Part shown: in pieces, positions 15,110-63,844 of the stretch | Position numbering within the stretch: the stretch's first letter is position 1 | Layout: each line of letters begins with the position of its first letter | Virus record (IMG/VR): IMGVR_UViG_3300037294_000176 | Span: 7,399-71,398 of that record | Reading direction: 5' to 3' (one strand) | DNA: 64,000 bases | From: a virus | The notes under the pieces: model-generated | Databases searched by the model: none | The model's input: the letters and a program-made list of their open reading frames with translations, nothing else | What the model was told of the DNA's origin: nothing | Translations under genes and position numbers: made by a program

Positions 15110-15127
15110 ACCCCGTTAAATTAACCC
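15110..15127 (+). promoter_or_regulatory. motif A (CCCGTTRAMTTAACCC) copy 1, putative phage-RNAP promoter upstream of scaffold/capsid
   Basis: accccgttaaattaaccc; recurs intergenically at 39064, 46842 and 61633. Confidence 0.7.
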
Positions 15128-20250: not shown

Positions 20251-20253
20251 CCT

Positions 20254-20284: not shown

Positions 20285-20304
20285 AAATCAAACAAGGAGA
20301 CAGT

Positions 20305-39063: not shown

Positions 39064-39081
39064 ACCCCGTTGACTTAACCC
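39064..39081 (+). promoter_or_regulatory. motif A copy 2, upstream of the lysis genes
   Basis: accccgttgacttaaccc. Confidence 0.7.
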
Positions 39082-39162: not shown

Positions 39163-39699
39163 ATGATAAATGTAATTGTAGCAGGTCTAGCCAAGAAGGG
39201 TCTAGACTTGATTGCTGGAGCGGTTGCGAAAAAAGGCACTGACTTCATTAAAGAAAAGACAGGTATTGACCTCTCGTCCGTTCGTAGCGAAGATGACATT
39301 GGGGACCAAGAAATTGAGCTTCTGAGAGAATACCAAGAAACTAACAGAGCAGAAATCTTAGCCTACCTTACCGAGAGAGACAAGACTGCTCTCGCAAGAA
39401 CAAAGCTGACATTTGACGACACTGTCAACGCAAGAGAGATGCAAGTCTCTACGATGAAATCAAATAAAGTAGCTGGGATGTTTGTTTATATTCTTTCTAG
39501 CTACTTAATGATTGTATCTACTGCGTACATCGCGTTTATTACTTTTGGCACTATTCCTCCACAGAACGTTCGCTTTGCAGACGTCATTCTGGGCTTTGTT
39601 ATGGGTACAATTGTTAGTGCTATTCTTAACTTTTATTTCGGGTCGTCTAGATCTTCGCAAGCCAAAGACGATACAATCTCGAGGGCATTAAATGGTTGA
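39163..39699 (+). CDS. holin-like membrane protein
   Basis: Two C-terminal transmembrane helices ending ILNFYFGSS..S..KD; directly upstream of the endolysin. Confidence 0.75.
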   Translation: MINVIVAGLAKKGLDLIAGAVAKKGTDFIKEKTGIDLSSVRSEDDIGDQEIELLREYQETNRAEILAYLTERDKTALARTKLTFDDTVNAREMQVSTMKSNKVAGMFVYILSSYLMIVSTAYIAFITFGTIPPQNVRFADVILGFVMGTIVSAILNFYFGSSRSSQAKDDTISRALNG

Positions 39700-40327
39700 G
39701 CGCCTCCACAACTATGACTACGACGAGAGCAACCTCTTTGTCATCATTCGGCAGCTACTAGGTCGTGGCCTTACCCCTTCTGAAGTAAGACAGATTCAGT
39801 CAGCAAGACTTAAAGAAGTTGTCACGGCCTCTGTGGTTGCTGGTATTCAACCTTCGATGCGTATCATCAAGTTCCTACACGAGTTTGAGAGTCTGAGACT
39901 CACTCCTTATAAAGATCCGGGTTCAATTAACGGGCTTCCTATTACGTGTGGGTGGGGTTCTACGACTCACCTAGACGGTCGTAAAATTCAGCTGGGTGAA
40001 GTTGCCTGGACGAAAGACTACGCAGATAAAGTTTTTGAAAAAGATTTAAAGGTATTTACAGCTGGTGTAAATTTCCTTATTGGAAAGTCGCCTACTACAC
40101 AAAATCAGTTTGACGCGATGTTTAGCTTCGCTTACAATTGCGGTCTAGATATTGATGAAGATACTAAGGCTGAAGGTCTTGGTGACAGTACGTTGCTTCG
40201 TAAGCACCTCGCAAGAGATTACGCAGGAGCACAAGCCCAGTTTAAAAGCTGGAACAAAAATGATGGTAAGGTCCTAGCTGGTCTTACCCGTCGTCGTGAA
40301 GCAGAAGCCGTAATCTACGGTTCCTGA
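39692..40327 (+). CDS. endolysin, GH24 phage lysozyme
   Basis: FES(L)RLTPYKD...TCGWGST, QNQFDAMFSFAYN, STLLRK, GLTRRREAE. Confidence 0.92.
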   Translation: MVERLHNYDYDESNLFVIIRQLLGRGLTPSEVRQIQSARLKEVVTASVVAGIQPSMRIIKFLHEFESLRLTPYKDPGSINGLPITCGWGSTTHLDGRKIQLGEVAWTKDYADKVFEKDLKVFTAGVNFLIGKSPTTQNQFDAMFSFAYNCGLDIDEDTKAEGLGDSTLLRKHLARDYAGAQAQFKSWNKNDGKVLAGLTRRREAEAVIYGS

Positions 40328-40331
40328 TCAC

Positions 40332-40361
40332 AAGGCCTGAGACATGCCTTTAAACTGTCTC
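40332..40361 (+). ncRNA. H-type pseudoknot repeat copy 1
   Basis: AAGGC-CT-GAGACA-T-GCCTT-TAAAC-TGTCTC. Confidence 0.7.
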
Positions 40362-40369
40362 TTTTAATT

Positions 40370-40395
40370 TGCGGGAAACGAGGTATCTTATATGA
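40370..40395 (+). promoter_or_regulatory. motif B (TGCG-N8-GGTAYCTTATATGA) copy 1, putative early promoter
   Basis: tgcg-ggaaacga-ggtatcttatatga; second copy at 61669. Confidence 0.6.
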
Positions 40396-40415
40396 AACCT
40401 CAGAAAGGATATCCA

Positions 40416-40778
40416 ATGGTTTACAATGCTATACAGTCACCTGTAACCGCAACTCTAATTGACGCTAGAAAGCTTCTATCTAATGGTTGGACTAAGTACA
40501 CGCATGCGGTTAACCAAGAAGGTGAATCCGTGCCTGTCGACGCTGAAGATGCTTGTAGCTTTTGTATCACAGGGGCTATTAAAAGGAGCTCTCTCGCAAG
40601 TGTCGCTTTTGGCTATGATGCGGGAGTCGCTGCAAGAACCGCCGTGAGATCTGTACTCTATCAAAACCTAGGCAATCCTAGTATTGTGGAGTTTAACGAT
40701 TCAGAGTTAACCACGAAGAACGGGGTACTAAACGTTATCTCTGCTGCAATTGCGCTGAGTAAAAAGGAAACAACATGA
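40416..40778 (+). CDS. DUF6197-like hypothetical protein
   Basis: ATG at 40416 after AAAGGA; GWT...FCITGAI...FND..T pattern. Confidence 0.65.
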   Translation: MVYNAIQSPVTATLIDARKLLSNGWTKYTHAVNQEGESVPVDAEDACSFCITGAIKRSSLASVAFGYDAGVAARTAVRSVLYQNLGNPSIVEFNDSELTTKNGVLNVISAAIALSKKETT

Positions 40779-41021
40779 TTGTGTTCATCGCGTACAGTGT
40801 AATTGCTACGCTAGTGTTGAAGGCTATGAAATGAGCAGAACTAGGCTTATAAAGAGAGCTCCGTGAAGTCAAAAAATATGTTAAGCTCAGCTGAGCTAAA
40901 GCTGCAAATGGTAAGCCTGCTTCGCCAACAAGTCTGACTGCTACTACGACTACATCTTTCAAGGAAAGAAAGATTCAGACCTCGTTTCTAGAGACTTAAC
41001 CCAGTAACCACAGGAAAACAG

Positions 41022-41378
41022 ATGATCAGCCTCCTACTCGCAGCAATGCTAGACTTCACTTCAGTTACTAGTAAGTGCGCCGTACAGTTGGATGAAGTTA
41101 GGGTTGGCCCTATTGACTGCCGAGTTGCTTCTTATAAACTCGGCGACCAGCGACACGTGGTATTCAATGTAAGCGGTATCGAGTATTCGTTTACAGGTGT
41201 TGACTTCATTGGTGATACAATGAGCGTTAGTCACATCAGTATCACAACAAACGGTCGCACCTCAACAACACGTGCAGCTAGAAGATCTTTCTGCAAGCTT
41301 GAAACAGGCTTTGTCAGCTGCTCAGCAAAAGGACGTGACGTTAGTTTCTCGCTTGATACAATGGCAACACGTGAGTAA
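41022..41378 (+). CDS. hypothetical protein with hydrophobic N-terminus
   Basis: AGGA RBS; signal-peptide-like start; four Cys. Confidence 0.6.
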   Translation: MISLLLAAMLDFTSVTSKCAVQLDEVRVGPIDCRVASYKLGDQRHVVFNVSGIEYSFTGVDFIGDTMSVSHISITTNGRTSTTRAARRSFCKLETGFVSCSAKGRDVSFSLDTMATRE

Positions 41379-41646
41379 ACCTCAGATATGGGAAGTCGGT
41401 GAAGAAGTAGTTTACATCGGCCACGCTAAAGTTCCCTTTGTCTTCAGCACTGGGTCAAAACACAGGATAACGAGGACTGAGAGTCCTCTTACATGTTGTG
41501 TCCACGGGCCTTCACAGGGTGTACAAGTAGACACATTCCACGCTGTGTTGACCAATAACATGTTTCTTTGTGCCCACTCGTTCCGAAAGCCCATTAATTT
41601 CAAAGAGCTCTTGAATGTAGAAGAAAGAGCGCTTGAATCAATCTAA
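41272..41646 (+). CDS. hypothetical protein (true start probably GTG ~41371)
   Basis: ORF fills the gap between neighbours; start uncertain. Confidence 0.5.
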   Translation: MQLEDLSASLKQALSAAQQKDVTLVSRLIQWQHVSKPQIWEVGEEVVYIGHAKVPFVFSTGSKHRITRTESPLTCCVHGPSQGVQVDTFHAVLTNNMFLCAHSFRKPINFKELLNVEERALESI

Positions 41647-41655
41647 GAGGAAGAT

Positions 41656-42306
41656 ATGAATAAGTTAGCCGCAGAGATTGGAGTGTACAAGATGTCAGTC
41701 AGAGACACTGACAAGGCAATCGTTATTTTTAGATTTCCTCAAAACAAGTACGCTACGTTCTGTGAGGGTCTCCAAATACCAAAGAACAAAAACACACGTT
41801 TCAAGCTGACAGTGTACACAGAAAAGGAAATGACTTACGCGGTAGTGACGCCCTTCGAATTCGGAGCTAAGCTCCTTGAGCGGGATTCTCGTCACTATGA
41901 CATTATGTTTAGCACAGCAGATGCAGTAGACGTAGGTAAGTTCTGCAGCTTTACAAAAGCGTCTAACTTAGCGTTCAGAAATGGCGTTTTGTATTTCCAG
42001 CTAAGTTCAATGCGGAAGCCAGTCAGAAGAGCTAAGAACAGCATAAGCGTTGCACCGCTCGACAAATCTAAGCCACCAAAGAGAACAGTCTCCCTTAGAG
42101 AGCAAAGACGCACTTGCACTTTATCTTACAGTGAGGTGCTAAAAGTGTATGAGAAAGTGCCTAGCCGACTTACGAGAGAAGCCTGGGAGTTACTCTCTAC
42201 CGTGGGTCTAGGTAGCTGCCTTTTGGAAGAAAAGCAAGTAGAGTACCAAGCTGCCATCCTTGAGTTGCATTCCGCGCTCAAGCATCAAAGGATACTAGTC
42301 AAATGA
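41656..42306 (+). CDS. hypothetical protein
   Basis: GAGGA RBS, 216 aa, basic. Confidence 0.65.
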   Translation: MNKLAAEIGVYKMSVRDTDKAIVIFRFPQNKYATFCEGLQIPKNKNTRFKLTVYTEKEMTYAVVTPFEFGAKLLERDSRHYDIMFSTADAVDVGKFCSFTKASNLAFRNGVLYFQLSSMRKPVRRAKNSISVAPLDKSKPPKRTVSLREQRRTCTLSYSEVLKVYEKVPSRLTREAWELLSTVGLGSCLLEEKQVEYQAAILELHSALKHQRILVK

Positions 42307-42542
42307 ACTATCTAGTCTTTGCAATTCTGTTTCGCATCTCACTTTTTACGAAGGGGTGCCACGTGCGTGTGTTGAGCGCCAAGTTCAATTTTTACAACGA
42401 AATGTCTGACTTGCTTCTTGCCAAAGGTAGCAGGAAAGCTTTCAAGTGGTTTGATCGTAAAGCACAAAAGGCAGCTCAACGCTGCTATGAGCTTGAAGCA
42501 GACATGAATACGCTAAACATGCTGTTGGAAACACTCGTCTAA
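42303..42542 (+). CDS. hypothetical protein
   Basis: ATGA overlap with the previous gene. Confidence 0.55.
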   Translation: MNYLVFAILFRISLFTKGCHVRVLSAKFNFYNEMSDLLLAKGSRKAFKWFDRKAQKAAQRCYELEADMNTLNMLLETLV

Positions 42543-42572
42543 TTGTAGCTACCTAAACCCAAGAGGAATTAA

Positions 42573-42704
42573 ATGGTCTACGTTATCAGTGCACTGGCGC
42601 TCCTTGGCGCTTTCTCACTCATCAAGTTTGTGCTTCTTCTTGTAGTTCTCGTAGCTACTGAGATGAGAGCACAACGACACAAGAAAGCACTTTCAAATGA
42701 CTGA
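42573..42704 (+). CDS. small membrane protein (43 aa, not in ORF track)
   Basis: GAGGA RBS; MVYVISALALLGAFSLIKFVLLLVVLVA... Confidence 0.55.
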   Translation: MVYVISALALLGAFSLIKFVLLLVVLVATEMRAQRHKKALSND

Positions 42705-42936
42705 GCTAAACCTCAACAATGTCGTCAAATTCAAAATGACGGCTACCGGTATGCAAATGCTGAAAGAGCAGCACGAGCTGCTTTATGGCACTCGTAAGCC
42801 GTTTAAACAACCCTTAGCGGACGCTGACGGTTGTAATACTATGGCACTGTGGGACCTGATGAACACTTTTGGATCAAAGATGTTTATTGGTAACGCCAAC
42901 TTGCCGATCGAAACTAGACTCACCGTGGTCAAGTAA
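42697..42936 (+). CDS. hypothetical phage protein
   Basis: LNLNNVVKFKMT..G...LWDLMNTFG pattern. Confidence 0.65.
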   Translation: MTELNLNNVVKFKMTATGMQMLKEQHELLYGTRKPFKQPLADADGCNTMALWDLMNTFGSKMFIGNANLPIETRLTVVK

Positions 42937-42959
42937 GACCTCATCAAAGGAATATCCTA

Positions 42960-43250
42960 ATGCAAAAGCCAACTTTTACTAAGCCAGTCGTTCAAGAAAC
43001 CGAAGATAATCAGGTTACTATCTTGAGCAAAGCAGGTATGCTTTCCCTGACAATCATCTCTGTTGTCTTCTTCGTCATCATGTCGATGAAGGTTCCAGGG
43101 TTCTTCGGCTTTGTTAAAATCTCTGGAGACGTGATCGCAAATTATAAGATCGCATTTATTGTGCTAACGTTGGTCCTATGGATTGGCTTCAACGCCAAAA
43201 AGCAGCCAACTCGTACTAAGCCGTCCGTTCGGTATACCGAGAAGACTTAA
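42960..43250 (+). CDS. two-helix membrane protein
   Basis: AAGGA RBS; two hydrophobic segments. Confidence 0.65.
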   Translation: MQKPTFTKPVVQETEDNQVTILSKAGMLSLTIISVVFFVIMSMKVPGFFGFVKISGDVIANYKIAFIVLTLVLWIGFNAKKQPTRTKPSVRYTEKT

Positions 43251-43255
43251 CCACA

Positions 43256-43332
43256 CGACCTGAACATGTCGCTAAACTGTTTTCACATGAAGTTTAAAAC
43301 CCCTCCGACCTGAACATGTCGTTAAACTGTTC
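43256..43332 (+). ncRNA. H-type pseudoknot repeat copies 2 and 3 (43256-43282, 43306-43332)
   Basis: CGAC-CT-GAACA-T-GTCG-YTAAAC-TGTTY in tandem. Confidence 0.7.
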
Positions 43333-43388
43333 ACGGCCTTTTATTTTTCTTTGTCAAGTGATATACATCATCACTCAGTAAAAACAAA

Positions 43389-43550
43389 ATGAAAGACCCT
43401 GCTATGACGCGAAGAACGAAAGTTAGCCCTTGGTTGCAAGTTGCATTTCTATTCCTTGCATTTTGCTTAATAATCAAGAGTATCGCAGTAGCAGGTGTAT
43501 TTATAGCCGCTTACCTGGTGTTGGTATACGGTAAGAAATTTTTCAGATAG
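43389..43550 (+). CDS. small membrane protein (53 aa, not in ORF track)
   Basis: ATG...TAG in frame, hydrophobic core. Confidence 0.45.
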   Translation: MKDPAMTRRTKVSPWLQVAFLFLAFCLIIKSIAVAGVFIAAYLVLVYGKKFFR

Positions 43551-43563
43551 CAAAGGCGAACTG

Positions 43564-45816
43564 ATGAAAGCAGCGTTACGAGACTCTTTTATAGAAAGGC
43601 TGCACAAGGAGCTTGCCCCTCAAAACCCTGTAGTGTACTTGAAAAAATTTGCTGTAGAAGAATATCTTGACATTGTGATATCGATTGTCTACTTGTATAC
43701 ACGCCCTAAACGTGGTACAACAAAAACAACGATATACATGGCTGAGGTGATATCCGCAATAGGTCACGCTGTTCGAACAAAACTGCGTCAGAAGAAAGAC
43801 TCCGGTCTTGCAGCAAAAAGTGGAGCTTTCCTTCTATACACGTTTGAGCAGTTTGGGTTAATTCAAATTGTGCTCGGTCAAGGCTCTAAAGGCCACGCAG
43901 CGTACATAGTCCAAGTCTTAGATGACGATCTTATCTGCGAGCTATGGTCTAACGTTGACCCTAGCAAAGTTGAAAAATTACCCTCTACCACTCCTTACGA
44001 GCCCTGGACAAGCACCCGTCATTTTACTGGTGCGGGTCTGATCAAGACAAATAATCGAGACGTGCTAGAAGCTGTGAAACCTGAAACGCATCCTATTGTG
44101 TTTGACTGTGTAAACAAAGCGCAAACTCAAGGTTGGCAAGTCAACGAAGAACTCTATCGAATTCACTTGTGGGCTCTTCGTAATAAGACAGACGCGTTTG
44201 CAGACATCTGGGAACAACAGAACGCAGAGGCAAGAATCACTAAACTCCGAGAGGCAAAAGCAATCGGGGATATTGCAAGAAGATTCTTAGGAAAGACCTT
44301 TTACCACCTTTACTATTTTGACTTCAGAGGTCGTAAGTATCCTACAACAGCCTACCTCCACGAGCAAGGTTCAGACCTAGCAAGAGGTCTTCTTCTTCGT
44401 TCTGATAAAAAGTCAATTGGGCAACCAGGTTTCTTCTGGTTGTTAGTGTCAATTGCTTCTAACTGGGCTGGAGATGCAGGTAGAGAAGACGGGCTAAAGA
44501 CAGACAAAATCCCTTTAGCCGACAGATTTCTTTGGGCGATGGACAACGAAGAAATTCTCCTTGACTACGCTGCAAATCCTAAAGTCTCTCAAGGCTGGAT
44601 GAAAGCAGACAAGCCCTGGCAGTTTCTTGCAGCTTGTCTAGAACTCAAGAATCTACGTGAGTGGCAGTTCACCTACGGAGATAGGACAGAGAATATCTTT
44701 GAAGACTATTCTTACGAGTCTCATCTGGAAGCTTACATTGATGGTTCCAATAACGGTAGTCAACACCTGTCTGCTTTGACTAAGGACGAAATCACTGCTC
44801 CGCACGTAAACCTTGTACCTCAAGATCTTCCTGGTGACCTTTACAGGTACGTAGCCGATCACGTCTGGTTGCGCCTTGAAGAGCAAATGGCTGAGTTAGG
44901 ACAAGAAGCGATTGAAGACTGTAACAAGTTTATCGACACGTTGATAGACTTGAAACGTCAGATCATGGCTGCTCAGCCCAAAAGTGAGATACGAGAGCGA
45001 CTAGTAGAGCAGATTAAAGCGTTCAAGGACAATAACAGTGAAGTTGCTTCAATCGCAGGTCCCGTTTACTGGCTTAGAATTAGAGATCAGAAACACCGTC
45101 GCAAGATCGTGAAGCGCAATGTTATGACATTGCCGTATGGTGGCACTGCGTATGGCCTAGGGCAGCAACAGATTGACGATGCTAAGAAGCATGGCATTGA
45201 TCAACTGATGTATTTAGAACACAAGTGGGGCTCATTCCTCGGTCGAGAGATATTCGATGACTGTAGAATATCGTTAGCTAGACCAATGCGACTGCTTACT
45301 GTGTTTGAAAGTGCAGGCAAGCGTGCAGAACAGCGTGGAGAGTTCCTAAAATGGACTGTCCCTATTACTAACTTTCCTGTGGTTCAACACTATACAGAAG
45401 GTGTAGTGAAAAAGCTGTGGATTCAGTACGGGCCTCCAAAGGGCGATCGTAAAAGTACAGGCTACTACGAGAACACTTTACAGTTAGCAATCTGCTTTAT
45501 TGAAACAGTGGTCCCGTCTAAGAACAAGCAAGCCCAAGGTGCAAGCCCTAACGCTATTCACAGCCTTGATGCTGGACATTTAGCAATTGCAGTTCACAGA
45601 TCTGACTTCTCCGTTACAACCATCCATGACTCTTTTGGTTGTCTTCTTGCCGATATGCCTGAGCTCTTTATTAAAGTTCGTGAGACGTTTGTTGAGTTGT
45701 ACTCAGCTGATCCTCTCACTTCCCTAATGAAAGATATTGATGGTGATATCAGTCTTGTTGAGATTGGCAATCTTGACGTAACCCTGGTGCTCGAATCCGA
45801 GTACTGTTTCGCATAG
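43564..45816 (+). CDS. T7-like single-subunit DNA-dependent RNA polymerase
   Basis: FDFRGRKY, KPWQFLA, motif A DGSNNGSQH, motif B RKIVKRNVMTLPYG, SPNAIHSLDA, motif C IHDSFG. Confidence 0.96.
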   Translation: MKAALRDSFIERLHKELAPQNPVVYLKKFAVEEYLDIVISIVYLYTRPKRGTTKTTIYMAEVISAIGHAVRTKLRQKKDSGLAAKSGAFLLYTFEQFGLIQIVLGQGSKGHAAYIVQVLDDDLICELWSNVDPSKVEKLPSTTPYEPWTSTRHFTGAGLIKTNNRDVLEAVKPETHPIVFDCVNKAQTQGWQVNEELYRIHLWALRNKTDAFADIWEQQNAEARITKLREAKAIGDIARRFLGKTFYHLYYFDFRGRKYPTTAYLHEQGSDLARGLLLRSDKKSIGQPGFFWLLVSIASNWAGDAGREDGLKTDKIPLADRFLWAMDNEEILLDYAANPKVSQGWMKADKPWQFLAACLELKNLREWQFTYGDRTENIFEDYSYESHLEAYIDGSNNGSQHLSALTKDEITAPHVNLVPQDLPGDLYRYVADHVWLRLEEQMAELGQEAIEDCNKFIDTLIDLKRQIMAAQPKSEIRERLVEQIKAFKDNNSEVASIAGPVYWLRIRDQKHRRKIVKRNVMTLPYGGTAYGLGQQQIDDAKKHGIDQLMYLEHKWGSFLGREIFDDCRISLARPMRLLTVFESAGKRAEQRGEFLKWTVPITNFPVVQHYTEGVVKKLWIQYGPPKGDRKSTGYYENTLQLAICFIETVVPSKNKQAQGASPNAIHSLDAGHLAIAVHRSDFSVTTIHDSFGCLLADMPELFIKVRETFVELYSADPLTSLMKDIDGDISLVEIGNLDVTLVLESEYCFA

Positions 45817-45823
45817 GTGTCTA

Positions 45824-46282
45824 ATGCAAGTGTATAATACCGTACAAGAGATGAGAGTCGACAGCATCGATCCTTTGCTGTCCGAGTACATGTATGCTAT
45901 AATGACGTATTTTCCAGGGCAAGAGTTGGAAGAGTTTGACGCTGCTCTTGGAGGTCAAGTCCACATTGTAGAAACTAACGAGGACCTGCGCCAAATTGCT
46001 CTTCCACAAGAGAGCACTCTGCCACTAGAGAACCGACCAAGTCACGGCTGGTCAACTCCGCTAGAGAGTGCAACAGGTACAGATCAGGCTGCTTATCTCT
46101 ACGGCAGCCAGTGGATGATTATCTGGACAGCTTGGAATGACTCAGGAGGTCCAACTTTTTTCATCCCTAAGGCTGTTTTTGATACTGTTCCTAACCTTGA
46201 CGCAATTGTCAAACTAAGCAGTTCCTCGAACAATGACACGTTTAGTCGCTTTCCGGGAGATGAAAATGTTAGTGAAGCGTAG
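45824..46282 (+). CDS. hypothetical protein
   Basis: 152 aa, acidic; WNDSGG motif. Confidence 0.6.
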   Translation: MQVYNTVQEMRVDSIDPLLSEYMYAIMTYFPGQELEEFDAALGGQVHIVETNEDLRQIALPQESTLPLENRPSHGWSTPLESATGTDQAAYLYGSQWMIIWTAWNDSGGPTFFIPKAVFDTVPNLDAIVKLSSSSNNDTFSRFPGDENVSEA

Positions 46283-46457
46283 CTCAATCCTTACTGGCGT
46301 TGAGCGAGAAATAGAGCTTGACATAACAGAAGAAAGACTAACGGCTTACTGTAAAGGTCAGCTGGGCCTAATTCAAACAGCATTTCCACATCTAACTGAC
46401 AATGAACGAGAGTTCATAATGACAGGTATCACACAAGACGAATGGGAGAAAATGTGA
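46266..46457 (+). CDS. small hypothetical phage protein
   Basis: ATG at 46266; LIQxAFPHLxxxEREFIMTGITxxEW pattern. Confidence 0.65.
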   Translation: MLVKRSSILTGVEREIELDITEERLTAYCKGQLGLIQTAFPHLTDNEREFIMTGITQDEWEKM

Positions 46458-46828
46458 GCAACTCTAACAACCAATACACGTCAGCTACAAATAAAGGGTC
46501 TATAAAGGAGTGTATGGCAGAAGATAGAATGAAAAATACTTTTATTTTGCTAGGTTCTGACGTTTACATTCCTTACTCAGAAGTTGTATTAGAGGCTCTC
46601 ACAAGCAGCTATATCTTAGAGTCAGCTTATAACGTTGATTACGACTCTCTGCTTATCATTACAAGTAGAAGACCTTCTGTCAAGGTAATGAACAAAGACG
46701 TGATTACCCCGAAGTACGCAACTCCAGAAGCAGTTGCAAAACACAATAAAGCGCAGCTCAATCGAATGGAAGCAGACCTTGAGCAGTTGCAAAAAGATAT
46801 CGAACTTGCGCGTGAAGCAGTAGCGTAG
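46442..46828 (+). CDS. hypothetical protein
   Basis: ORF with C-terminal coiled coil; start uncertain. Confidence 0.5.
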   Translation: MGENVSNSNNQYTSATNKGSIKECMAEDRMKNTFILLGSDVYIPYSEVVLEALTSSYILESAYNVDYDSLLIITSRRPSVKVMNKDVITPKYATPEAVAKHNKAQLNRMEADLEQLQKDIELAREAVA

Positions 46829-46841
46829 TTCTAGTTCAACA

Positions 46842-46859
46842 ACCCCGTTAACTTAACCC
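46842..46859 (+). promoter_or_regulatory. motif A copy 3, upstream of SSB/replication block
   Basis: accccgttaacttaaccc. Confidence 0.7.
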
Positions 46860-46901
46860 TCTTGTTGAGGTTAACACAAGTTCTAACCAACAGGTAATTA
46901 A

Positions 46902-47489
46902 ATGGCTATCATTAAAGACGCAGAAATCTGGTTTCTAAAGGCTGACCCTAAGCGCCCAAACAAGCGCTTTAACAAGGCAAATCCCACTTGGGAAGTGCAA
47001 CTTCGAACAACCGATATCGCTCAAAAGAAAGTGTGGGAATCTCAACACCTCCAGCCGAAGCCTATTACAGACGAGGAAACTGGAACGCGACTGTACTGGA
47101 AAGTTAACCTCCGTCGCAAATCTGTGAAAGAAGACGGTACTGCAAGTACTGTGCCAGAGGTTAAAGACGGTGACCTTGAACCAGTAGATCCTAACACAGT
47201 CGGTAACGGATCGGTGGCTAACATCCAAGTCTTCCAATACGAGTACGATCTGGAGACTGGAGGCAAAGGTATTGCTAACGTGTTTATGGGTCTCCAGCTC
47301 ATTAAGCATGTCGTGTACAAGCCTAAACCACGTGAAGATGAGTTCAAGCAAATCAAAACTGAACGAGTCGAGGCTGAGAGTACTAGCGAAGAAGATGAGA
47401 TGGAAAGTGGTGACGATGACAACACTGTTGTTGAATCAGAAGCTCCCAAAACATCAAGCGTCGGTGTACCTAAAATCACGGGCTTTTAA
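46902..47489 (+). CDS. single-stranded DNA-binding protein (T7 gp2.5-like)
   Basis: VGNGSVANI...GLQLIK; acidic C-terminal tail ending in F. Confidence 0.75.
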   Translation: MAIIKDAEIWFLKADPKRPNKRFNKANPTWEVQLRTTDIAQKKVWESQHLQPKPITDEETGTRLYWKVNLRRKSVKEDGTASTVPEVKDGDLEPVDPNTVGNGSVANIQVFQYEYDLETGGKGIANVFMGLQLIKHVVYKPKPREDEFKQIKTERVEAESTSEEDEMESGDDDNTVVESEAPKTSSVGVPKITGF

Positions 47490-47496
47490 TTGAAAC

Positions 47497-47528
47497 AAAG
47501 GGCTACTCTGAAATACGGGTAGCCCTTT
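47497..47528 (+). terminator. intrinsic terminator after SSB
   Basis: AAAGGGCTAC...GTAGCCCTTT. Confidence 0.7.
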
Positions 47529-47542
47529 AAATCGAGGTACAG

Positions 47543-48244
47543 ATGTTTATCTACGAAAAGTACATTGGAAGCGTTCGTGCTGACACCGAGATAAGAATTC
47601 GTTACGTTAACTACGTAGAGTTTTTAGAGCAGTCAGCAGACCACAGCATTTCTGTTAGTGAAGGCACGGGCGACAGACTACCAGTTGCCTCAATCCAAAC
47701 TAGACAAGACCTTCTTAAGTGGCTAGTAAATCACCCTAGTGAAGTACTTTCAATGATGGGGAAACCTTCGCCTCACTCAGCGTTAGAGATTGAGCTAGCG
47801 ACTTACCTGAACAAGTCAAAAGGGAAAGAGCTGGTAGACAAGAACCTAAAAACAGCAGCAGCTGTAGGTAAGCCAGGTATTAGCGCAGTTCCTGTTATTG
47901 CGTTTGTGGCTCTCGGTGAAGCGATGGCTGACGGTGCTAAGAAGTATGGTGCCTTCAACTGGAGGGACACAGGAGTGACTGCAAGTGTGTTTGAAGAAGC
48001 AATCTTCAGGCACTTTATGGATTACTTCGGAAACAGGAACGACTATGCTAAAGACAGCGGCATTCACCATCTTGCTCACCTTATGGCGTCTTGTGCCATT
48101 CTTTTAGACGCACAGGTCTATGGCATGCTAAATGATGATCGCGATAACGTAGATCAAGAAATCGACATCTACAAAATGGTCGAGACAATTAGGAACTATC
48201 AATGTCGAGATACTGCTATGACGTCGAAACAGACGGTCTCCTAA
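47543..48244 (+). CDS. dATP/dGTP diphosphohydrolase domain protein (DUF5664-like)
   Basis: GKP..S.VP...GAKKYGAFNWR...RH....D.DSGIHHLAH..ILLDA. Confidence 0.85.
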   Translation: MFIYEKYIGSVRADTEIRIRYVNYVEFLEQSADHSISVSEGTGDRLPVASIQTRQDLLKWLVNHPSEVLSMMGKPSPHSALEIELATYLNKSKGKELVDKNLKTAAAVGKPGISAVPVIAFVALGEAMADGAKKYGAFNWRDTGVTASVFEEAIFRHFMDYFGNRNDYAKDSGIHHLAHLMASCAILLDAQVYGMLNDDRDNVDQEIDIYKMVETIRNYQCRDTAMTSKQTVS

Positions 48245-50238
48245 AAACTGCTTCAAGGATGCATATCTTGTATCTTGAGGACCTTGATACAGGAGAAATG
48301 GAGTACTTCCTAGAAGGCGACCTTCGTTGGCAACAAAAGTTAGATAACGCCACACTACTCGTAGGTCACAAAATAGCTGACTTTGATAACATGATTCTCA
48401 GAAAGCTATTCAACTACAAGATTCCAAAAGCTTGCTCAATGGTTGACACGCTGATTTTGTCCAGGGTTTTAAACTACCGTAGGTTCGGAGACCAAGGTCA
48501 CGGTCTTCATCTGTGGGGCGACTACTTTGGTTTTCCAAAAGGGGACCACACCGACTGGACTCAGTATTCTGAAGAGATGCGTGTTTACTGTAAGCGAGAT
48601 GTTAATCTAAATGTGAAAGTCTATAATCATCTCTGGCAAGAATTCCTTGAGGCGTATGAAACTGAGCCTATGATTGCTGATTACATCCGTGCTGAGCATG
48701 CTCTAGCTACTTGGTGTGGACTGGCTGAGCTTTACGGATGGCCTTTTGACAAGCCAGCTGCAATTGAGTTGAGTGCGGCGCTAGAAGCCGAGATGCAGAA
48801 GGCGTATGACGAGCTAGTCCCTCAGCTAGGCAAGAAAGCTGTCGCCCTAGATAAAGATGGGGGTGTAGTTGTACCTAAGCGGATGCAGTACACTATGAAA
48901 GGTCTGTACTACGCCCACATGGCTGATTACTTTGAAGTAGACCCTTACGAAGGCATGCTTGAGCCTGAAGAGCGTGAGTTTAACTTTGTAGGTGAGTTTT
49001 GTAGAGTTCAATTCAAAGACTTAAGTCTTGATTCGCATGACGACGTTAAACTCTTTCTTTTGAGAAACGGTTGGGCCCCTACAGAGTACAATTACAAAAA
49101 GGATCCTAAGACCAAGCGAAAGACAAAAGAAAAAAGCTCGCCAAAAATCACTGAAGACAGCCTTGACATGCTAGGCCCTAAAGGTGCTTTGTATCCTGAG
49201 TTCCTTACTGCCAAGTCTAGGTTTAGTATCTTAAAGACCTGGATTGAAGAGACTGATTCAGACGGCATGCTTCACGGTGATTGTATTACAATTGGTACGC
49301 CGTCTATGAGAGCTACCCATAAGACTATTGTTAACGTGCCTTCATCAGACAGTCCTTGGGGGCGAGAGATGAGAAGCTTGTTCAAGAGTCTTCCTGGTTG
49401 GACTCTCATCGGTTGCGACTCGTCTGGTAATCAGGCCAGAGGTCTTGCCTATTTTCTAGGCGATGAAGAGTTCATCGACGTACTCGTCAACGGTGATGTT
49501 CACGCTTTTAATGCAAAACTTTTAGACGAGAGCTTGGCAAGAATGGGTCATGACTGGACCGAGTATGTCGTGAGGAACAATAAGTTTCAGCTCAAAGGTA
49601 AACTTCAAAGGTGGCTCGACAACCATGGTTTCACTAAGAGGCAGTATGTTGAGTCGAGGTTAAAGGCTAACCGACAAGGGGCTCGAATTTGGGCAGAGAA
49701 ATCAGTGTTTGCAGTCAAAAGGGCAGCAGCTAAACGTATTCTGTATGCCTTCCTTTTTGGAGCAGCAGGCCCTAAACTCTGGTCGTACATCTATGGAACA
49801 ACTGACGTTGAAAACGGACGAGAACTCAAGTCTAAGTTTACTCAAGCTGTTCCAGGATTTGAAGAGCTTCTGGAACGGTTGTCTAAAATTTACAAAAAGA
49901 CAAGCAAAGTTGGTGATGGATATATTCCCGGTATTGCCGGTAACCGTATTTACGTAGACAGCACTCACAAGCTTTTAGTCTATCTGCTCCAGTCTACAGA
50001 AAAGGCAACATGTTCAGCCGCGCTCATGTTAACTATGGAACGACTGGATGAAAAAGGTATTCCTTTTAGGCCATGTATTATGATGCATGATGAGATTGAT
50101 TTCCTCGTTCCTGATGAGCATGCTGAAGCAGCTATGGCAATCGGTAAAAAAGCTTTTGAAGACGGTCCTAAGCTCTTCGGGATTAATTTTATGAGTGGCT
50201 CAGGCAAATCTGGTCAAACATGGTATGATGTGCACTAA
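48202..50238 (+). CDS. family A DNA polymerase (T7-like) with 3'-5' exonuclease
   Basis: ExoI DVETDG, ExoII H...FD, ExoIII YCKRDV; motif A DSSGNQAR, motif B RAAAKRILYAFLFG, motif C HDE. Confidence 0.95.
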   Translation: MSRYCYDVETDGLLKTASRMHILYLEDLDTGEMEYFLEGDLRWQQKLDNATLLVGHKIADFDNMILRKLFNYKIPKACSMVDTLILSRVLNYRRFGDQGHGLHLWGDYFGFPKGDHTDWTQYSEEMRVYCKRDVNLNVKVYNHLWQEFLEAYETEPMIADYIRAEHALATWCGLAELYGWPFDKPAAIELSAALEAEMQKAYDELVPQLGKKAVALDKDGGVVVPKRMQYTMKGLYYAHMADYFEVDPYEGMLEPEEREFNFVGEFCRVQFKDLSLDSHDDVKLFLLRNGWAPTEYNYKKDPKTKRKTKEKSSPKITEDSLDMLGPKGALYPEFLTAKSRFSILKTWIEETDSDGMLHGDCITIGTPSMRATHKTIVNVPSSDSPWGREMRSLFKSLPGWTLIGCDSSGNQARGLAYFLGDEEFIDVLVNGDVHAFNAKLLDESLARMGHDWTEYVVRNNKFQLKGKLQRWLDNHGFTKRQYVESRLKANRQGARIWAEKSVFAVKRAAAKRILYAFLFGAAGPKLWSYIYGTTDVENGRELKSKFTQAVPGFEELLERLSKIYKKTSKVGDGYIPGIAGNRIYVDSTHKLLVYLLQSTEKATCSAALMLTMERLDEKGIPFRPCIMMHDEIDFLVPDEHAEAAMAIGKKAFEDGPKLFGINFMSGSGKSGQTWYDVH

Positions 50239-52471: not shown

Positions 52472-52957
52472 ATGAGCTTTACCGGTACTATACCGAAATT
52501 TGACAAAGTGGTTGTATCTAAATTCCTAAACGGCCACTGGAACTTCCATAAACAAATGGGAGAACGAGGGTACGTAGGTTTCATCTATGTCATTTATGAT
52601 AAAGTTATGAACCGAGCGTATCTCGGGAAAAAGCTTTACTATGGTACCGGTCAAGTGAATAAAGGTGTTGAAAGCAACTGGCGGCGTTATATGTCGTCGT
52701 CAGAAGTACTCAAGGCTCACTTTAAGGAGAGACCTCTCAGTGAGTTTGAGTTCTATTGTGTAGAAGAATACAGAACAAAAGGGACACTTAGCTACGCTGA
52801 GAGTTGGTCTTTGTTCTATGTTGAAGCACCTACGAGTAAAATATTCTACAATACCATGATCGAAAAGGTATGTTGGAAAGTGACAGAACCTATTTCTGAG
52901 GCGCATAAGACGCGTCTGGTAGAGCTATTAGAAAGACTTGAAAATGGCGTTGGTTAA
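52472..52957 (+). CDS. GIY-YIG-like nuclease
   Basis: GFIYVI...YLGKK...ESNWRRYMSS. Confidence 0.6.
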   Translation: MSFTGTIPKFDKVVVSKFLNGHWNFHKQMGERGYVGFIYVIYDKVMNRAYLGKKLYYGTGQVNKGVESNWRRYMSSSEVLKAHFKERPLSEFEFYCVEEYRTKGTLSYAESWSLFYVEAPTSKIFYNTMIEKVCWKVTEPISEAHKTRLVELLERLENGVG

Positions 52958-57785: not shown

Positions 57786-58222
57786 TGGATTTACGTAGAC
57801 AGAACTACTTTATGAGAGTGGCTGTCGAAACCGCTGGCCTATCCTATGCTACCAAGCTTAGGGTAGGCGCAGTGGCGGTCATTGACAGACGAATTGTTTG
57901 TACAGGTTACAACGGAACACCAGCAGGGGAGTCTAATCAGTGCGAAGACTTCTTTGATGGCAAGCTCAATACACGAGAAAACGTAGAGCACGCTGAACGT
58001 AACCTCATCTACTACGCCACTAGAAAGGGTATTGCACTAGAGGGTGCTTCTTTATTTATAACACATTCGCCCTGTATTGAATGTGCAAGAGCAATAGCTA
58101 ACGTAGGCTTCATTGAAGTCTATTACCAGACCCTTTTCAATCATGAAGAGGGTCTTAAATTTTTAAATGACAGAGTCCGAGTCATTCAAGTACACCCTAC
58201 AAATTACAGGAACCACAAATGA
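57785..58222 (+). CDS. dCMP deaminase
   Basis: TGYNG, HAE, THSPCIEC. Confidence 0.92.
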   Translation: MDLRRQNYFMRVAVETAGLSYATKLRVGAVAVIDRRIVCTGYNGTPAGESNQCEDFFDGKLNTRENVEHAERNLIYYATRKGIALEGASLFITHSPCIECARAIANVGFIEVYYQTLFNHEEGLKFLNDRVRVIQVHPTNYRNHK

Positions 58223-61632: not shown

Positions 61633-61650
61633 AACCCGTTAACTTAACCC
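61633..61650 (+). promoter_or_regulatory. motif A copy 4
   Basis: aacccgttaacttaaccc. Confidence 0.7.
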
Positions 61651-61668: not shown

Positions 61669-61694
61669 TGCGCAGATCAGGGTACCTTATATGA
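61669..61694 (+). promoter_or_regulatory. motif B copy 2
   Basis: tgcg-cagatcag-ggtaccttatatga. Confidence 0.6.
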
Positions 61695-61741
61695 TAAGAA
61701 ATATGTCTTGTCATTATCAAGCCAATCAAGGAATAAAGACT

Positions 61742-62317
61742 ATGACTGAATTTAAACAAATGTACGTCACAAGCGACGGCCAAATGTTCCCAACGATGGC
61801 TGAAGTGAACGATTACCTGCGTACTCCAAAGGTTCGTGAAGCGCTTCTGGCCATGACCGACAACAATGTCCAACTTTCTGAATGGCTGATTGAGCACCGT
61901 GAAGTTGTTGAGTCTGCCTTCGACGTAGGTACGATCACGCGTGTCACGAAGTCGGACAAAGCCAAGCTGGTAAAGGCTTTAGGCTTCCTCGTTGAAGTTG
62001 CTGCCTCTGATAAGCGCCTGGCGTTCCTCGCTGACAATCACGAGGCTATTGCAGAGTCGTTCCGCTGGCCCAAGGTTAGCCGTATGACGCCTGAAGAAAA
62101 GGCAACTGCTGCTTTCAACACGCTTCAAGGCGTTGACGGCAACGAAGAACTGGCTAACTGGGTGCTGTCGCAGAAGACCGCTATCCTGGAAGCCTACGAG
62201 GCTGGTAAAGTCAAGCAGACCCTCAACGTCAAAGCTGCTGAAGGTCTTGCCGCTTACCGTGCCAAGAAGGAAGCCGCAAAGGCTGCCGCCACAGCTGCTG
62301 AAGCTCCTGCAGAGTAA
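61742..62317 (+). CDS. highly expressed hypothetical protein
   Basis: ATG at 61742 after AAGGA; capsid-like codon bias; Ala/Lys-rich C-terminal tail. Confidence 0.75.
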   Translation: MTEFKQMYVTSDGQMFPTMAEVNDYLRTPKVREALLAMTDNNVQLSEWLIEHREVVESAFDVGTITRVTKSDKAKLVKALGFLVEVAASDKRLAFLADNHEAIAESFRWPKVSRMTPEEKATAAFNTLQGVDGNEELANWVLSQKTAILEAYEAGKVKQTLNVKAAEGLAAYRAKKEAAKAAATAAEAPAE

Positions 62318-62359: not shown

Positions 62360-62454
62360 GGTATCACTTGTGATGCCGCCTCGTAAGAGGTATGACCTAG
62401 GCAAGTCGTTAAAGGAGCCTGTTCGTCCGACCTGAGCATGTCACAAAACTGCTC
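62360..62454 (+). ncRNA. structured intergenic RNA: two hairpins plus pseudoknot copies 4 (62393-62420) and 5 (62429-62454)
   Basis: GGTATCAC/GTGATGCC; GCCTC-GTAA-GAGGT; GAC-CT-AGGC..GTC..GCCT; GAC-CT-GAGCA-T-GTC-ACAAAAC-TGCTC. Confidence 0.65.
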
Positions 62455-62460
62455 GTTTTA

Positions 62461-63759: not shown

Positions 63760-63844
63760 GTGAGCGTGGCGGAATTGGTAGACGCCCCAGACTTAAAATC
63801 TGGTATCTTCTGGTGTACGGGTTCGAGTCCCGTCGCTCACACCA
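63760..63844 (+). tRNA. tRNA-Leu (anticodon UAA)
   Basis: Acceptor GTGAGCG/CGCTCAC, D-loop GGAATTGGTAGAC, anticodon arm CCAGA-CTTAAAA-TCTGG, variable arm, GGTTCGAGTCC, encoded ACCA. Confidence 0.95.

What the first reader, a model, noticed from the sequence alone, without database searches (positions are those of the whole stretch)
43564..45816. Second, stand-alone T7-like RNAP: two single-subunit polymerases in one siphovirus-type genome
Seen: a 750-aa RNAP with canonical motifs (DGSNNGSQH, KRNVMTLPYG, IHDSFG), clearly divergent from the MuF-fused enzyme. It lies between small early-type genes and the replication block. Inference: a cascade in which the injected MuF-RNAP transcribes early genes, including this RNAP, which then drives replication, structural and lysis operons. 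It is also shorter than T7 RNAP (883 aa), suggesting a reduced N-terminal domain or a need for a cofactor.
Basis: partly seen in the sequence, partly recalled or inferred. Interest (0 to 1): 0.8.

Follow-up and report, generated by a model that had tools for sequence, protein, structure and literature searches.

The report
Second RNA polymerase of long-tailed phage
An uncultured long-tailed phage from a salt lake encodes a compact but complete T7-type RNA polymerase besides a very different one fused to a capsid protein, and its promoter-like signals suggest that one enzyme hands transcription over to the other, a scheme shared by many relatives but absent from the papers searched.

Summary
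ORF 43564..45816 (+) encodes a 750-aa T7-type single-subunit RNA polymerase. All catalytic motifs are intact and the predicted fold matches T7 RNAP over its whole length. The same 71-kb phage genome encodes a second, barely similar polymerase fused to the MuF head protein (10475..15103). All 15 related virus records I could search carry both genes, and so does the cultured roseophage DSS3_VP1.

The enzyme is short because its N-terminal region and thumb are reduced. It falls in a large clade of short polymerases with DSS3_VP1 and Pelagibacter phage Kolga, apart from T7, Syn5 and Xp10.

A 17-nt motif (CCCCGTTAAATTAACCC) heads the packaging/structural, capsid, lysis and replication operons. It occurs only on the coding strand and is conserved across relatives. 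The polymerase gene itself lies in a motif-free block of hypervariable small genes. That block follows a conserved module: a pseudoknot here, a hairpin in relatives, then a T-run.

This layout fits the proposed cascade, but no expression data exist. Which enzyme reads which signal is inference. The cofactor idea stays untested.

This scan has already noted the same polymerase pair in at least 16 other genomes. I found no paper describing it.

The parts
43564..45816 (+). Stand-alone T7-type single-subunit RNA polymerase, 750 aa. Motifs: DFRGR 253-257, motif A D393, motif B K517/Y525, motif C H688-D689, C-terminal YCFA.
10475..15103 (+). MuF head protein fused to a very divergent single-subunit RNAP domain (1542 aa). 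Motifs: DHRAR about 861, QDASSSGAQ 1010-1018, RKAAKAQNMVTFYGAG 1073-1088, IHDAF 1439-1443. Candidate virion-delivered polymerase.
15111..15127 (+). P1 promoter-like 17-mer, just after the MuF-RNAP gene and before the scaffold and capsid genes
39065..39081 (+). P1 promoter-like 17-mer (2 changes) before the lysis cassette (endolysin 39692..40327)
46843..46859 (+). P1 promoter-like 17-mer about 1 kb after the RNAP gene, 43 nt before the SSB gene that opens the replication block. The same place is conserved in relatives.
61634..61650 (+). P1 promoter-like 17-mer before ORF 61691..62317. A fifth copy lies outside the window at genome 7088-7104, before the packaging/structural genes.
43249..43338 (+). 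Two tandem H-type pseudoknots (43249-43288, 43299-43338) directly upstream of the RNAP operon. The second is followed by the T-run TTTTATTTTT at 43339.
40326..40366 (+). Pseudoknot of the same family (6-bp second stem) between the endolysin stop codon and the first small gene (40392)
62393..62460 (+). Two further pseudoknots (62393-62413 weak, 62421-62460) before the small-gene block that runs to the end of the record
40392..43550 (+). Block of small ORFs upstream of the RNAP gene. They are not conserved in relatives (0 or 1 of 57 loci). One is DUF6197. The block includes the 53-aa ORF 43389..43550 just before the RNAP gene.
45824..46282 (+). 152-aa protein of no known family, conserved directly downstream of the RNAP gene (27 of 57 loci). 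In some relatives it carries a C-terminal extension that may correspond to the next small ORF. A cofactor role is speculation.
46902..50238 (+). Start of the replication block served by P1: gp2.5-like SSB (46902..47489), dATP/dGTP diphosphohydrolase-like protein (47543..48244), family A DNA polymerase (48202..50238)

Best explanation
ORF 43564..45816 encodes an active, promoter-specific T7-type RNA polymerase with a minimal N-terminal domain. It is the phage's non-virion workhorse polymerase. It most likely recognises the 17-nt P1 element (CCCCGTTAAATTAACCC) and from it transcribes the replication, capsid, lysis and packaging/structural operons. Its own gene sits in a P1-free block of fast-evolving small genes, behind a conserved structure-plus-T-run module. 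The gene must therefore first be expressed by another polymerase. The best candidate is the MuF-fused RNAP carried in the capsid and ejected with the DNA, by analogy with N4 and P23-45. Shown: the gene, its intact motifs, the fold, the conserved pairing of the two genes, and the motif layout. Inferred: enzymatic activity, which enzyme reads which element, packaging of the MuF enzyme, and timing.
For: Enzyme. Pfam PF00940 matches at E 1.3e-62. The motifs align with T7 D537, K631, Y639, H811-D812 and the FAFA tail. The AlphaFold model has pLDDT 92.5 and pTM 0.88. Its best whole-length match is the T7 RNAP-promoter complex 1cez_A: Z 35.9, rmsd 4.4, 662 residues aligned, model 1-750 to T7 76-883. 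The core 135-749 matches T7 265-882 at Z 43.8. A beta-hairpin at 100-118 aligns with the T7 intercalating-hairpin region, and a long hairpin at 611-651 lies at the specificity-loop position.

Conserved pair. 15 of 15 searchable related records hold the MuF-RNAP too; 19 handles were given and 4 were not held. DSS3_VP1 holds both genes.

P1. There are 4 matches in the window against 0.00 expected, and a fifth upstream in the genome. All are on the + strand and 41-168 nt before the first genes of operons. In 55 related loci (559,058 bases) there are 53 sites on + and 0 on -, and 43 of 55 loci have at least one. The places are conserved: a few hundred bases after the RNAP gene, and 2.5-4.4 kb before it. 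P1-like copies also occur in EBPR siphovirus 1, one of them right after its MuF-RNAP gene. DSS3_VP1 has its own family of 16 + strand sites that share CGTTAAA. One lies just before its SSB gene, and none lies in the 7.4 kb around its RNAP gene. T7 likewise has its first phage promoter just after gene 1.

Early block. The upstream ORFs are found in 0-1 of 57 loci. The structure-plus-T-run module is conserved before the RNAP operon: 20 of the 24 T>=10 runs on + lie within -320..-120 of the RNAP start, in 20 of 34 loci, with only 1 such run on -.

Precedents. N4 (PMC4496689, passages) and P23-45 (PMC10770324, abstract).
Against: There are no transcript or proteome data. The only run holding this DNA is a DNA run.

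A co-oriented P1 lies 4.5 kb upstream, so read-through could express the RNAP gene without any second polymerase.

The pseudoknot or hairpin plus T-run looks like a terminator as much as a promoter. Similar hairpin-plus-T elements also sit inside operons, for example before the tape measure gene (20251-20304) and after the SSB gene (47490-47542). The 7 G-U or U-G cells seen in the pseudoknots would be mismatches on the template strand, which favours an RNA-level structure.

Kolga has a related RNAP, while its MuF gene is only 633 aa and matched only the MuF part of the query (residues 9-352). This suggests, without a direct test, that the lineage can work without an injected enzyme.

Nothing excludes that the MuF enzyme reads P1.

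The T7 AT-rich recognition loop has no aligned counterpart, and no G follows P1 at a fixed distance.

The link between loss of P1 and changes in the specificity loop is imperfect.
Confidence: 0.55

Rival explanations
1. T7/Xp10 scheme. The host RNA polymerase transcribes the early block, including this RNAP gene. The stand-alone enzyme then takes over at P1. The MuF-fused polymerase has another or only a minor role, such as a few pre-early transcripts or help with genome entry.
For: In T7 and Xp10 the host enzyme makes the phage RNAP (PMC4496689 and PMC5053324, passages). Kolga has a related RNAP while its MuF gene is only 633 aa, apparently without a polymerase domain. A 10-of-12 sigma-70-like site lies at 40110-40138 on +.
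Against: Sigma-70-like sites are no more frequent than in shuffles: 18 found against 18.1 expected. The MuF-RNAP keeps its catalytic motifs and full length in 15 of 15 relatives at 56-71% identity, which argues for a selected polymerase function. No conserved sigma-70-type element was seen before the RNAP operon in relatives, only the structure plus T-run.
Confidence: 0.25
2. One promoter class, two enzymes. The injected MuF-RNAP also starts at P1, and the stand-alone enzyme merely amplifies transcription. Its gene is reached by read-through from the P1 at 39065. The pseudoknots, hairpins and T-runs are attenuators that set its level.
For: The only strongly conserved promoter-like motif is P1. 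A co-oriented P1 lies 4.5 kb upstream of the RNAP gene here and about 3.9 kb upstream in DSS3_VP1. The structure-plus-T-run modules resemble intrinsic terminators.
Against: The two polymerases share almost no sequence outside the catalytic motifs, so a shared 17-nt specificity is unlikely. Temporal order would be lost, because capsid and lysis genes would be transcribed from the first minute.
Confidence: 0.12
3. The stand-alone enzyme is inactive or serves mainly a non-transcriptional role, such as priming replication.
For: No direct evidence. T7 RNAP is known (recalled, from no call) to prime replication at the primary origin.
Against: All catalytic residues are intact. The family is large and conserved: 608 proteins at E<=1e-10 among 8000 scored candidates, with the top 120 at 62-77% identity and 739-799 aa. 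Invasion of the catalytic motifs by mobile insertions in relatives is a pattern usually taken, from general knowledge, to mark indispensable genes.
Confidence: 0.03

Closest known systems
Coliphage N4 programme (Schitoviridae): injected virion RNAP gp50, then RNAPII gp15/gp16 with gp1/gp2, then host RNAP (PMC4496689, passages read)
   Same: Two phage-encoded T7-family polymerases, one associated with the virion and very divergent, the other small with a truncated N-terminal domain and thumb. Early signals include DNA or RNA structure. The relay logic is the same.
   Different: N4 is a podovirus. Its virion enzyme is about 3500 aa and is not a MuF fusion. RNAPII is a heterodimer (269 + 404 aa), binds only single-stranded DNA and needs gp2. 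No gp1 or gp2 homologue was found here. N4 late genes use the host enzyme, whereas here P1 also heads the late operons. By structure, N4 gp16 is a weaker match (Z 20.3, 303 aligned) than T7 RNAP.
Roseophages DSS3_VP1 and DSS3_PM1 (Naomviridae, Noahvirus; siphovirus-shaped, dU-for-dT DNA; PMC8323127)
   Same: They are the closest cultured relatives of both genes: RNAP 35% identical, MuF-RNAP 31.5% over 94% of its length. The gene order is the same, all genes are on one strand, and the replication module is T7-like. They have their own promoter-like family that shares CGTTAAA and stands before the SSB gene.
   Different: The proteins are distant. The DSS3_VP1 MuF-RNAP gene is annotated only as 'head morphogenesis' or 'minor head protein-like'. 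The paper's main text never mentions RNA polymerase (0 occurrences); its supplementary tables could not be seen. No pseudoknots of the window's type were found there: 0 descriptor hits and only one cmsearch hit in L001, at E 8.2.
Bacteriophage T7 RNA polymerase (Autographiviridae gene 1; PDB 1cez)
   Same: Same fold and catalytic motifs. The intercalating hairpin and specificity loop are at the same places. The first phage promoter lies just after the polymerase gene.
   Different: The window enzyme is 133 aa shorter. It lacks T7 residues 1-75, about 150-210 and most of the thumb (about 345-390). It has insertions at about 306-316, 371-385 and 447-490 and a longer specificity loop. It falls outside the T7/Syn5/Xp10 clade in the tree (support 99, FastTree). 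The host phage is a siphovirus.
Xanthomonas phage Xp10 (siphovirus with a T7-like RNAP, 746 aa)
   Same: A long-tailed phage with a short single-subunit RNAP that takes over from another polymerase (passages in PMC5053324 and PMC4496689).
   Different: Xp10 has one phage RNAP, and the host enzyme reads its early genes. Its RNAP groups with the T7 side of the tree and is 28% identical over 82% of the query.
Thermus phage P23-45 (siphovirus): tape-measure-fused virion RNAP and non-virion RNAP (PMC10770324, abstract and outline read)
   Same: A siphovirus in which a polymerase fused to a virion protein transcribes pre-early genes, including the gene of a second polymerase. Two distinct DNA motifs direct the two enzymes.
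   Different: Both P23-45 enzymes are two-barrel relatives of cellular RNAPs, not T7-type. The fusion partner is the tape measure, not MuF.

Membership tests
T7-type single-subunit DNA-dependent RNA polymerase (Pfam PF00940) | Profile match above the curated cut-off | tested here: met
   212.5 bits against a cut-off of 22, E 1.3e-62, residues 283-726
T7-type single-subunit DNA-dependent RNA polymerase (Pfam PF00940) | Catalytic motifs: T/DxxGR, motif A Asp, motif B Lys and Tyr, motif C His-Asp, C-terminal aromatic-x-F-A tail | tested here: met
   DFRGR 253-257, D393, K517, Y525, H688-D689, YCFA 747-750. These align to T7 421-425, D537, K631, Y639, H811-D812 and FAFA. They are nearly invariant in a 42-row family alignment. 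The T7 residue numbers are read off the HMMER alignment; their catalytic roles are recalled.
T7-type single-subunit DNA-dependent RNA polymerase (Pfam PF00940) | Whole-chain fold like T7 RNAP | tested here: met
   Model pLDDT 92.5. Foldseek 1cez_A E 1e-30, TM 0.75. VIA-align 1cez_A Z 35.9, rmsd 4.4, 662 aligned.
T7-type single-subunit DNA-dependent RNA polymerase (Pfam PF00940) | Promoter-recognition elements: intercalating hairpin, specificity loop, AT-rich recognition loop | tested here: inconclusive
   The hairpin at 100-118 and the long hairpin at 611-651 lie at the expected places. The T7 AT-rich loop region aligns to a gap. A basic, low-confidence loop at 47-56 could replace it. The positions of these elements in T7 are recalled.
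T7-type single-subunit DNA-dependent RNA polymerase (Pfam PF00940) | Promoter-specific RNA synthesis without further subunits | not testable with these tools
   Needs purified enzyme and templates
Autographiviridae-type RNAP clade (T7, SP6, Syn5) | Groups with T7 in a polymerase tree; about 800-880 aa with a full N-terminal domain | tested here: not met
   In a FastTree of 105 rows, the window falls in a 58-row clade of mostly 650-790-aa proteins with DSS3_VP1 and Kolga. A branch of support 99 separates it from the 47 rows that hold T7, Syn5 and Xp10. The tree is quick and has only SH-like support.
N4-like polymerase relay (Schitoviridae) | Giant (about 3500 aa) virion RNAP and heterodimeric RNAPII with gp1/gp2 cofactors | tested here: not met
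   The virion candidate is a 1542-aa MuF fusion, and the second enzyme is one chain of 750 aa. No gp1 or gp2 homologue appeared by phmmer at E<=10, and BLASTP gave only E>=0.21. Fast-evolving cofactors could escape such a search. It may work like N4 without being a member.
N4-like polymerase relay (Schitoviridae) | Early promoters that are DNA hairpins read by the injected enzyme | tested here: inconclusive
   A covarying pseudoknot (this window) or hairpin (relatives) plus a T-run precedes the RNAP operon. Its role as promoter or terminator cannot be told from sequence.
Naomviridae | Genome-wide relatedness to Noahvirus; dU in place of dT | not tested
   Only single genes were compared (35% and 31.5% identity). 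The window carries a dCMP deaminase, a PF18909 diphosphohydrolase-like gene and PolA. These are the gene kinds proposed for dU synthesis in Noahvirus (passage in PMC12669031). Base content cannot be read from an assembly.

The most novel reading that the evidence does not exclude
A large, mostly uncultured lineage of long-tailed phages, including the marine uracil-DNA Naomviridae, transcribes its whole genome without the host polymerase. It uses a relay of two T7-family enzymes. The first is a MuF-anchored polymerase ejected from the capsid, which starts at structured, T-run-flanked early signals. The second is a minimal 750-aa polymerase that reads a 17-nt promoter for all middle and late operons. 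This autonomy may be tied to non-canonical DNA, as in the uracil-DNA jumbo phage AR9, which also has a virion and a non-virion polymerase. If so, this would be a convergent solution built from single-subunit enzymes.
Probability: 0.3. Interest if true: 0.8.

Novelty: new variant of a known kind. Interest (0 to 1): 0.58.

Why it matters
The polymerase alone is an ordinary new member of the T7 family. The interest lies in the pair. Until now, relays of an injected and a second phage polymerase were known from three groups. These are N4-like podoviruses (T7-type enzymes), jumbo phages, and P23-45 (multisubunit-type or two-barrel enzymes).

Here the same logic appears in a siphovirus, with a different delivery device (MuF) and a single-chain second enzyme. 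The group has hundreds of environmental relatives and includes the ecologically important Naomviridae.

If confirmed, this would give a new compact promoter-specific polymerase with a 17-nt promoter, useful as an orthogonal expression tool. It would also give a tractable model in DSS3_VP1 for how capsid-carried enzymes start infection. Finally, it would test whether non-canonical DNA drives transcriptional independence from the host.

Tried and rejected
I first read the repeated element before the RNAP gene as a simple N4-like hairpin promoter and built covariance model R1 on that basis. Testing it showed an H-type pseudoknot, so I dropped the 'simple hairpin' reading.

I do not count it as a promoter class.

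Rfam gave only a tRNA at 63760-63841 at gathering score, and only sub-threshold chance-level rows around 43200-43600.

The megablast search of 40000-50000 against phage records found no match.

The search for N4 gp1 and gp2 homologues found nothing credible.

Specificity-loop residues against presence of P1 gave only a partial pattern: TGY becomes N-containing in three P1-less lineages, but L035 breaks the rule and L022 and L024 keep TGY. I judged this inconclusive.

The repeated-word search in Kolga gave only AT-rich words, which I judged uninformative.

Complex prediction of the RNAP with the conserved 152-aa neighbour gave 'no answer' (score 0.23, mark 0.32). This is no evidence either way.

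Sequencing runs: no RNA holder was listed. One DNA run of a salt lake metagenome may be the source, so I did not use read laying.

PurZ (PF00709) is absent from the record, so I did not pursue a Z-genome reading.

Literature searches that found no description of a MuF-RNAP fusion or of two T7-type polymerases in a siphovirus. The Naomviridae papers PMC8323127 and PMC12669031 have 0 occurrences of 'RNA polymerase', 'RNAP' or 'MuF' in the main text. Their supplements are closed and may list the genes.
Full report
OBSERVATION. The window is bases 7399-71398 of a 71,398-base IMG/VR virus record that CheckV rates 100% complete. All predicted genes lie on the + strand. ORF 43564..45816 gives a 750-aa protein. 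It matches Pfam RNA_pol PF00940 at E 1.3e-62 and PHROG 414 at E 2.3e-108. It holds DFRGR (253-257), DGSNNGSQH (393-401), KRNVMTLPYG (517-526), IHDSFG (687-692) and a C-terminal YCFA. In a HMMER alignment these fall on T7 RNAP 421-425, D537, K631/Y639, H811-D812 and the FAFA tail.

The second polymerase is ORF 10475..15103 (1542 aa). It carries Phage_Mu_F at 145-250 and RNA_pol at 1376-1480. Its own versions of the motifs are DHRAR, QDASSSGAQ, RKAAKAQNMVTFYGAG and IHDAF. The two enzymes share almost nothing else: best BLASTP E 0.015. The C-terminal 742 aa of the fusion reaches solved polymerases only at E about 0.5.

The genome is siphovirus-type. It has a large terminase, scaffold, major head protein, major tail protein, a 3274-aa tape measure, a distal tail protein and a 2420-aa central fibre.

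WHAT THE ENZYME LOOKS LIKE. An AlphaFold model built from a 42-row alignment has mean pLDDT 92.5 and pTM 0.88. Foldseek ranks T7 RNAP and mitochondrial RNAPs first; 1cez_A scores E 1e-30 and TM 0.75. VIA-align gives Z 35.9, rmsd 4.4 and 662 aligned residues for the T7 promoter complex, with model 1-750 on T7 76-883. The core 135-749 lies on T7 265-882 at Z 43.8, rmsd 3.1 and 514 aligned. N4 mini-vRNAP reaches Z about 22 at 11% identity, and N4 RNAPII gp16 reaches Z 20.3 with 303 aligned.

A MAFFT alignment with T7, Syn5, Xp10, DSS3_VP1, Kolga and 16 family representatives places the losses. The enzyme lacks T7 residues 1 to about 75, about 150-210, and most of the thumb at about 345-390. It has small insertions at about 306-316 and 371-385, and a 45-residue helical insertion between motifs A and B. 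The beta-hairpin at 100-118 aligns with the T7 intercalating-hairpin region, and the long hairpin at 611-651 sits where the specificity loop is. The T7 AT-rich recognition loop aligns to a gap. A basic, low-confidence loop at 47-56 is a possible substitute, but that is speculation.

Shortness itself is normal outside the T7 clade: Xp10 746, DSS3_VP1 732, Kolga 762, Syn5 779 aa, and N4 RNAPII 269 + 404 aa. The N4 review describes RNAPII as having a truncated thumb and N-terminal domain and needing the ssDNA-binding cofactor gp2 (PMC4496689, passages). A cofactor is therefore conceivable. I found no gp1 or gp2 homologue.

RELATIVES. The family is large. There are 608 proteins at E<=1e-10 among the 8000 candidates scored, and the best 120 are 62-77% identical and 739-799 aa long. 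In the 50%-clustered library there are 6128 representatives at E<=0.001 and 1361 at E<=1e-30.

Among named phages the best hits are DSS3_VP1 and DSS3_PM1 (35%), the Pelagibacter phages Kolga and Aegir (27.5%), and then podoviruses and Xp10 at 25-29%. A FastTree of 105 rows puts the window in a 58-row clade of mostly 650-790-aa enzymes with DSS3_VP1 and Kolga. A branch of support 99 separates it from the 47 rows with T7, Syn5 and Xp10. This is a quick tree with long branches and SH-like support only. The IQ-TREE run did not finish.

The MuF-RNAP is 59% identical to gp46-49 of EBPR siphovirus 1 and 31.5% identical to the 'head morphogenesis' protein of DSS3_VP1. EBPR siphovirus 1 is a partial record that ends in the tail genes. 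Its lack of the stand-alone RNAP therefore says nothing.

In IMG/VR I found 70 related loci. Of 19 longer records, 15 could be searched, and all 15 hold the MuF-RNAP at 56-71% identity. Kolga has the stand-alone type, while its MuF gene is only 633 aa and matched only residues 9-352 of the fusion. I did not scan it for a polymerase domain.

SIGNALS. Two classes of repeated elements stand out.

P1, CCCCGTTAAATTAACCC, has five copies on the + strand. One lies at genome 7088, just outside the window, before the packaging and structural genes. The others lie at 15111 (after the MuF-RNAP gene, before scaffold and capsid), 39065 (before the lysis cassette), 46843 (43 nt before the SSB gene that opens the replication block) and 61634. 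The window has 4 matches against 0.00 expected in shuffles.

In 55 related loci there are 53 sites on + and none on - at up to 2 mismatches, and 43 loci have at least one. They recur at the same two places: after the RNAP gene before the SSB gene, and 2.5-4.4 kb upstream before the lysis genes. The dyad GTTAA-N-TTAAC is not kept by compensating changes in the variants (GTTGA, GTTAG, GTTAC on one side only). The element therefore behaves as an asymmetric, oriented signal.

EBPR siphovirus 1 has P1-like copies, one of them right after its MuF-RNAP gene. DSS3_VP1 has its own family, roughly ATAGGKKRCGTTAAAGRGGGG, with 16 sites, all on +. One lies directly before its SSB homologue, and none lies between 38541 and 45934, where its RNAP gene sits. 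It shares CGTTAAA with P1. Its 3' part resembles T3/T7-type initiation regions, but that is recalled and not tested.

The second class is structural. Five elements (40326, 43249, 43299, 62393 weak, 62421) and perhaps a sixth (20771, weak) fit an H-type pseudoknot. A note on the same genome first proposed this. On 15 aligned copies from the window and five relatives, 96.0% of 125 cells pair against 76.9% in shuffles, 6 of 9 pairs show changes on both sides, and no shuffle of 500 reaches the covariation score. The second stem was not part of my search model, so its support is independent of the fit. Some copies were found with a hairpin filter, which inflates the first stem. A descriptor scan finds 11 on + and 0 on - in 729 kb, against 0-5 per strand with other loop dinucleotides.

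In most relatives the same place holds a GC-rich hairpin, by eye often with a tetraloop-type loop (TTCG, GAAA and similar). It lies 160-280 nt before the RNAP start and is followed by a T-run of 10-35. Of 24 runs of T>=10 on the + strand of 34 loci, 20 lie within -320..-120 of the RNAP start, in 20 loci. Only 1 such run lies on the - strand. In the window the second pseudoknot is followed by TTTTATTTTT at 43339. This block is identical in the 77%-identical relative L027, while its surroundings differ.

READING. The RNAP gene sits in a P1-free stretch. That stretch starts after the lysis cassette and ends at the P1 before the SSB gene. Its upstream ORFs are found in 0 or 1 of 57 loci, as expected for early host-takeover genes. 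A second P1-free block of small genes runs from 62510 across the record's ends to genome 7087.

This is the layout of T7, where the first phage promoter follows gene 1 directly. Its gene needs another polymerase first. The conserved, intact, capsid-linked MuF-RNAP is the obvious candidate, by analogy with N4 and P23-45 (about 0.5-0.6). The host enzyme is the main rival.

The structure-plus-T-run module is the only conserved element before the RNAP operon, and in many relatives it abuts the next ribosome-binding site. It may be the early promoter, a terminator that shields the RNAP gene from P1-driven read-through, or both. The 7 G-U or U-G cells, the tetraloop-type loops and similar hairpin-plus-T elements inside operons all favour an RNA-level or terminator role. 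The lack of any other promoter candidate favours a promoter role. I cannot decide this from sequence.

NOVELTY. The enzyme is a new member of a known family, and public pipelines already label its relatives 'DNA-directed RNA polymerase'. The pairing with a MuF-fused polymerase in a siphovirus is a new variant of the injected-plus-second-polymerase theme.

I found it in no paper. Iyer et al. state that N4-like virion RNAPs occur only in N4-like phages (PMC5512222, passages). The two Naomviridae papers do not mention RNA polymerase in their main text. Their supplements were not visible.

This scan has noted the same pair in at least 16 other genomes, with similar conclusions. Those are unchecked AI notes and do not count as independent evidence.

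Noticed in passing
L037, L038, L040, L041, L044, L045, L047, L051-L054, L059 (related loci): In all 12 related loci examined (picked because their matches were too long or split), the stand-alone RNAP reading frame is interrupted by insertions of about 0.5-1.1 kb. The insertions sit at one or two of three places: just before DxxGR (about residue 250), inside motif A (394/395), and in motif B (about 518-526). Some are in frame and some shift frame, which suggests inteins or introns with homing endonucleases that target catalytic motifs. The MuF-RNAP of relatives likewise shows insertions near residues 990 and 1083, and EBPR siphovirus 1 has an HNH gene inside it.
   Followed up: partly
window 47543-48244, 57785-58222, 48202-50238: The window holds a dATP/dGTP diphosphohydrolase-like protein (PF18909, E 6.5e-19), a dCMP deaminase (PF00383, E 1.5e-20) and a family A DNA polymerase. 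These are the same three kinds of genes proposed for dT-to-dU replacement in Noahvirus (passage in PMC12669031). PurZ is absent. The phage might carry non-canonical DNA.
   Followed up: partly
window 45824-46282 and 46233-46457: The 152-aa protein next to the RNAP gene defines a conserved family of no known fold or name, with motifs GG...EDLK.I and TNNAGG..Y.IP. In L018, L019 and L041 it carries a C-terminal extension that may correspond to the next small ORF (phrog_20898); I did not align the two. That small ORF is also present in DSS3_VP1.
   Followed up: partly
window 63760-63841 and genome 1-142: A tRNA gene lies at 63760-63841 (Rfam, 60.5 bits). A tRNA-like sequence sits at the very start of the record. 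Both are in the second small-gene block.
   Followed up: no
window 20251-20304, 47490-47542; genome 1723-1771, 6698-6766: GC-rich hairpins followed by T-rich runs directly abut the ribosome-binding sites of the next genes: the tape measure gene, the diphosphohydrolase-like gene and small early genes. They may be attenuators or 3'-end stabilisers within operons. The one at genome 6698-6766 ends in the same TTTATTTTTT as the module before the RNAP operon.
   Followed up: no
window 52472-52957: A SegE-type GIY-YIG endonuclease gene sits between the 5'-3' exonuclease and the primase-helicase. It is probably a free-standing homing endonuclease.
   Followed up: no
window 40392-40778: The first small gene after the lysis cassette is a DUF6197 protein (E 3.4e-11). 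It is the only ORF of the hypervariable block with a family match.
   Followed up: no
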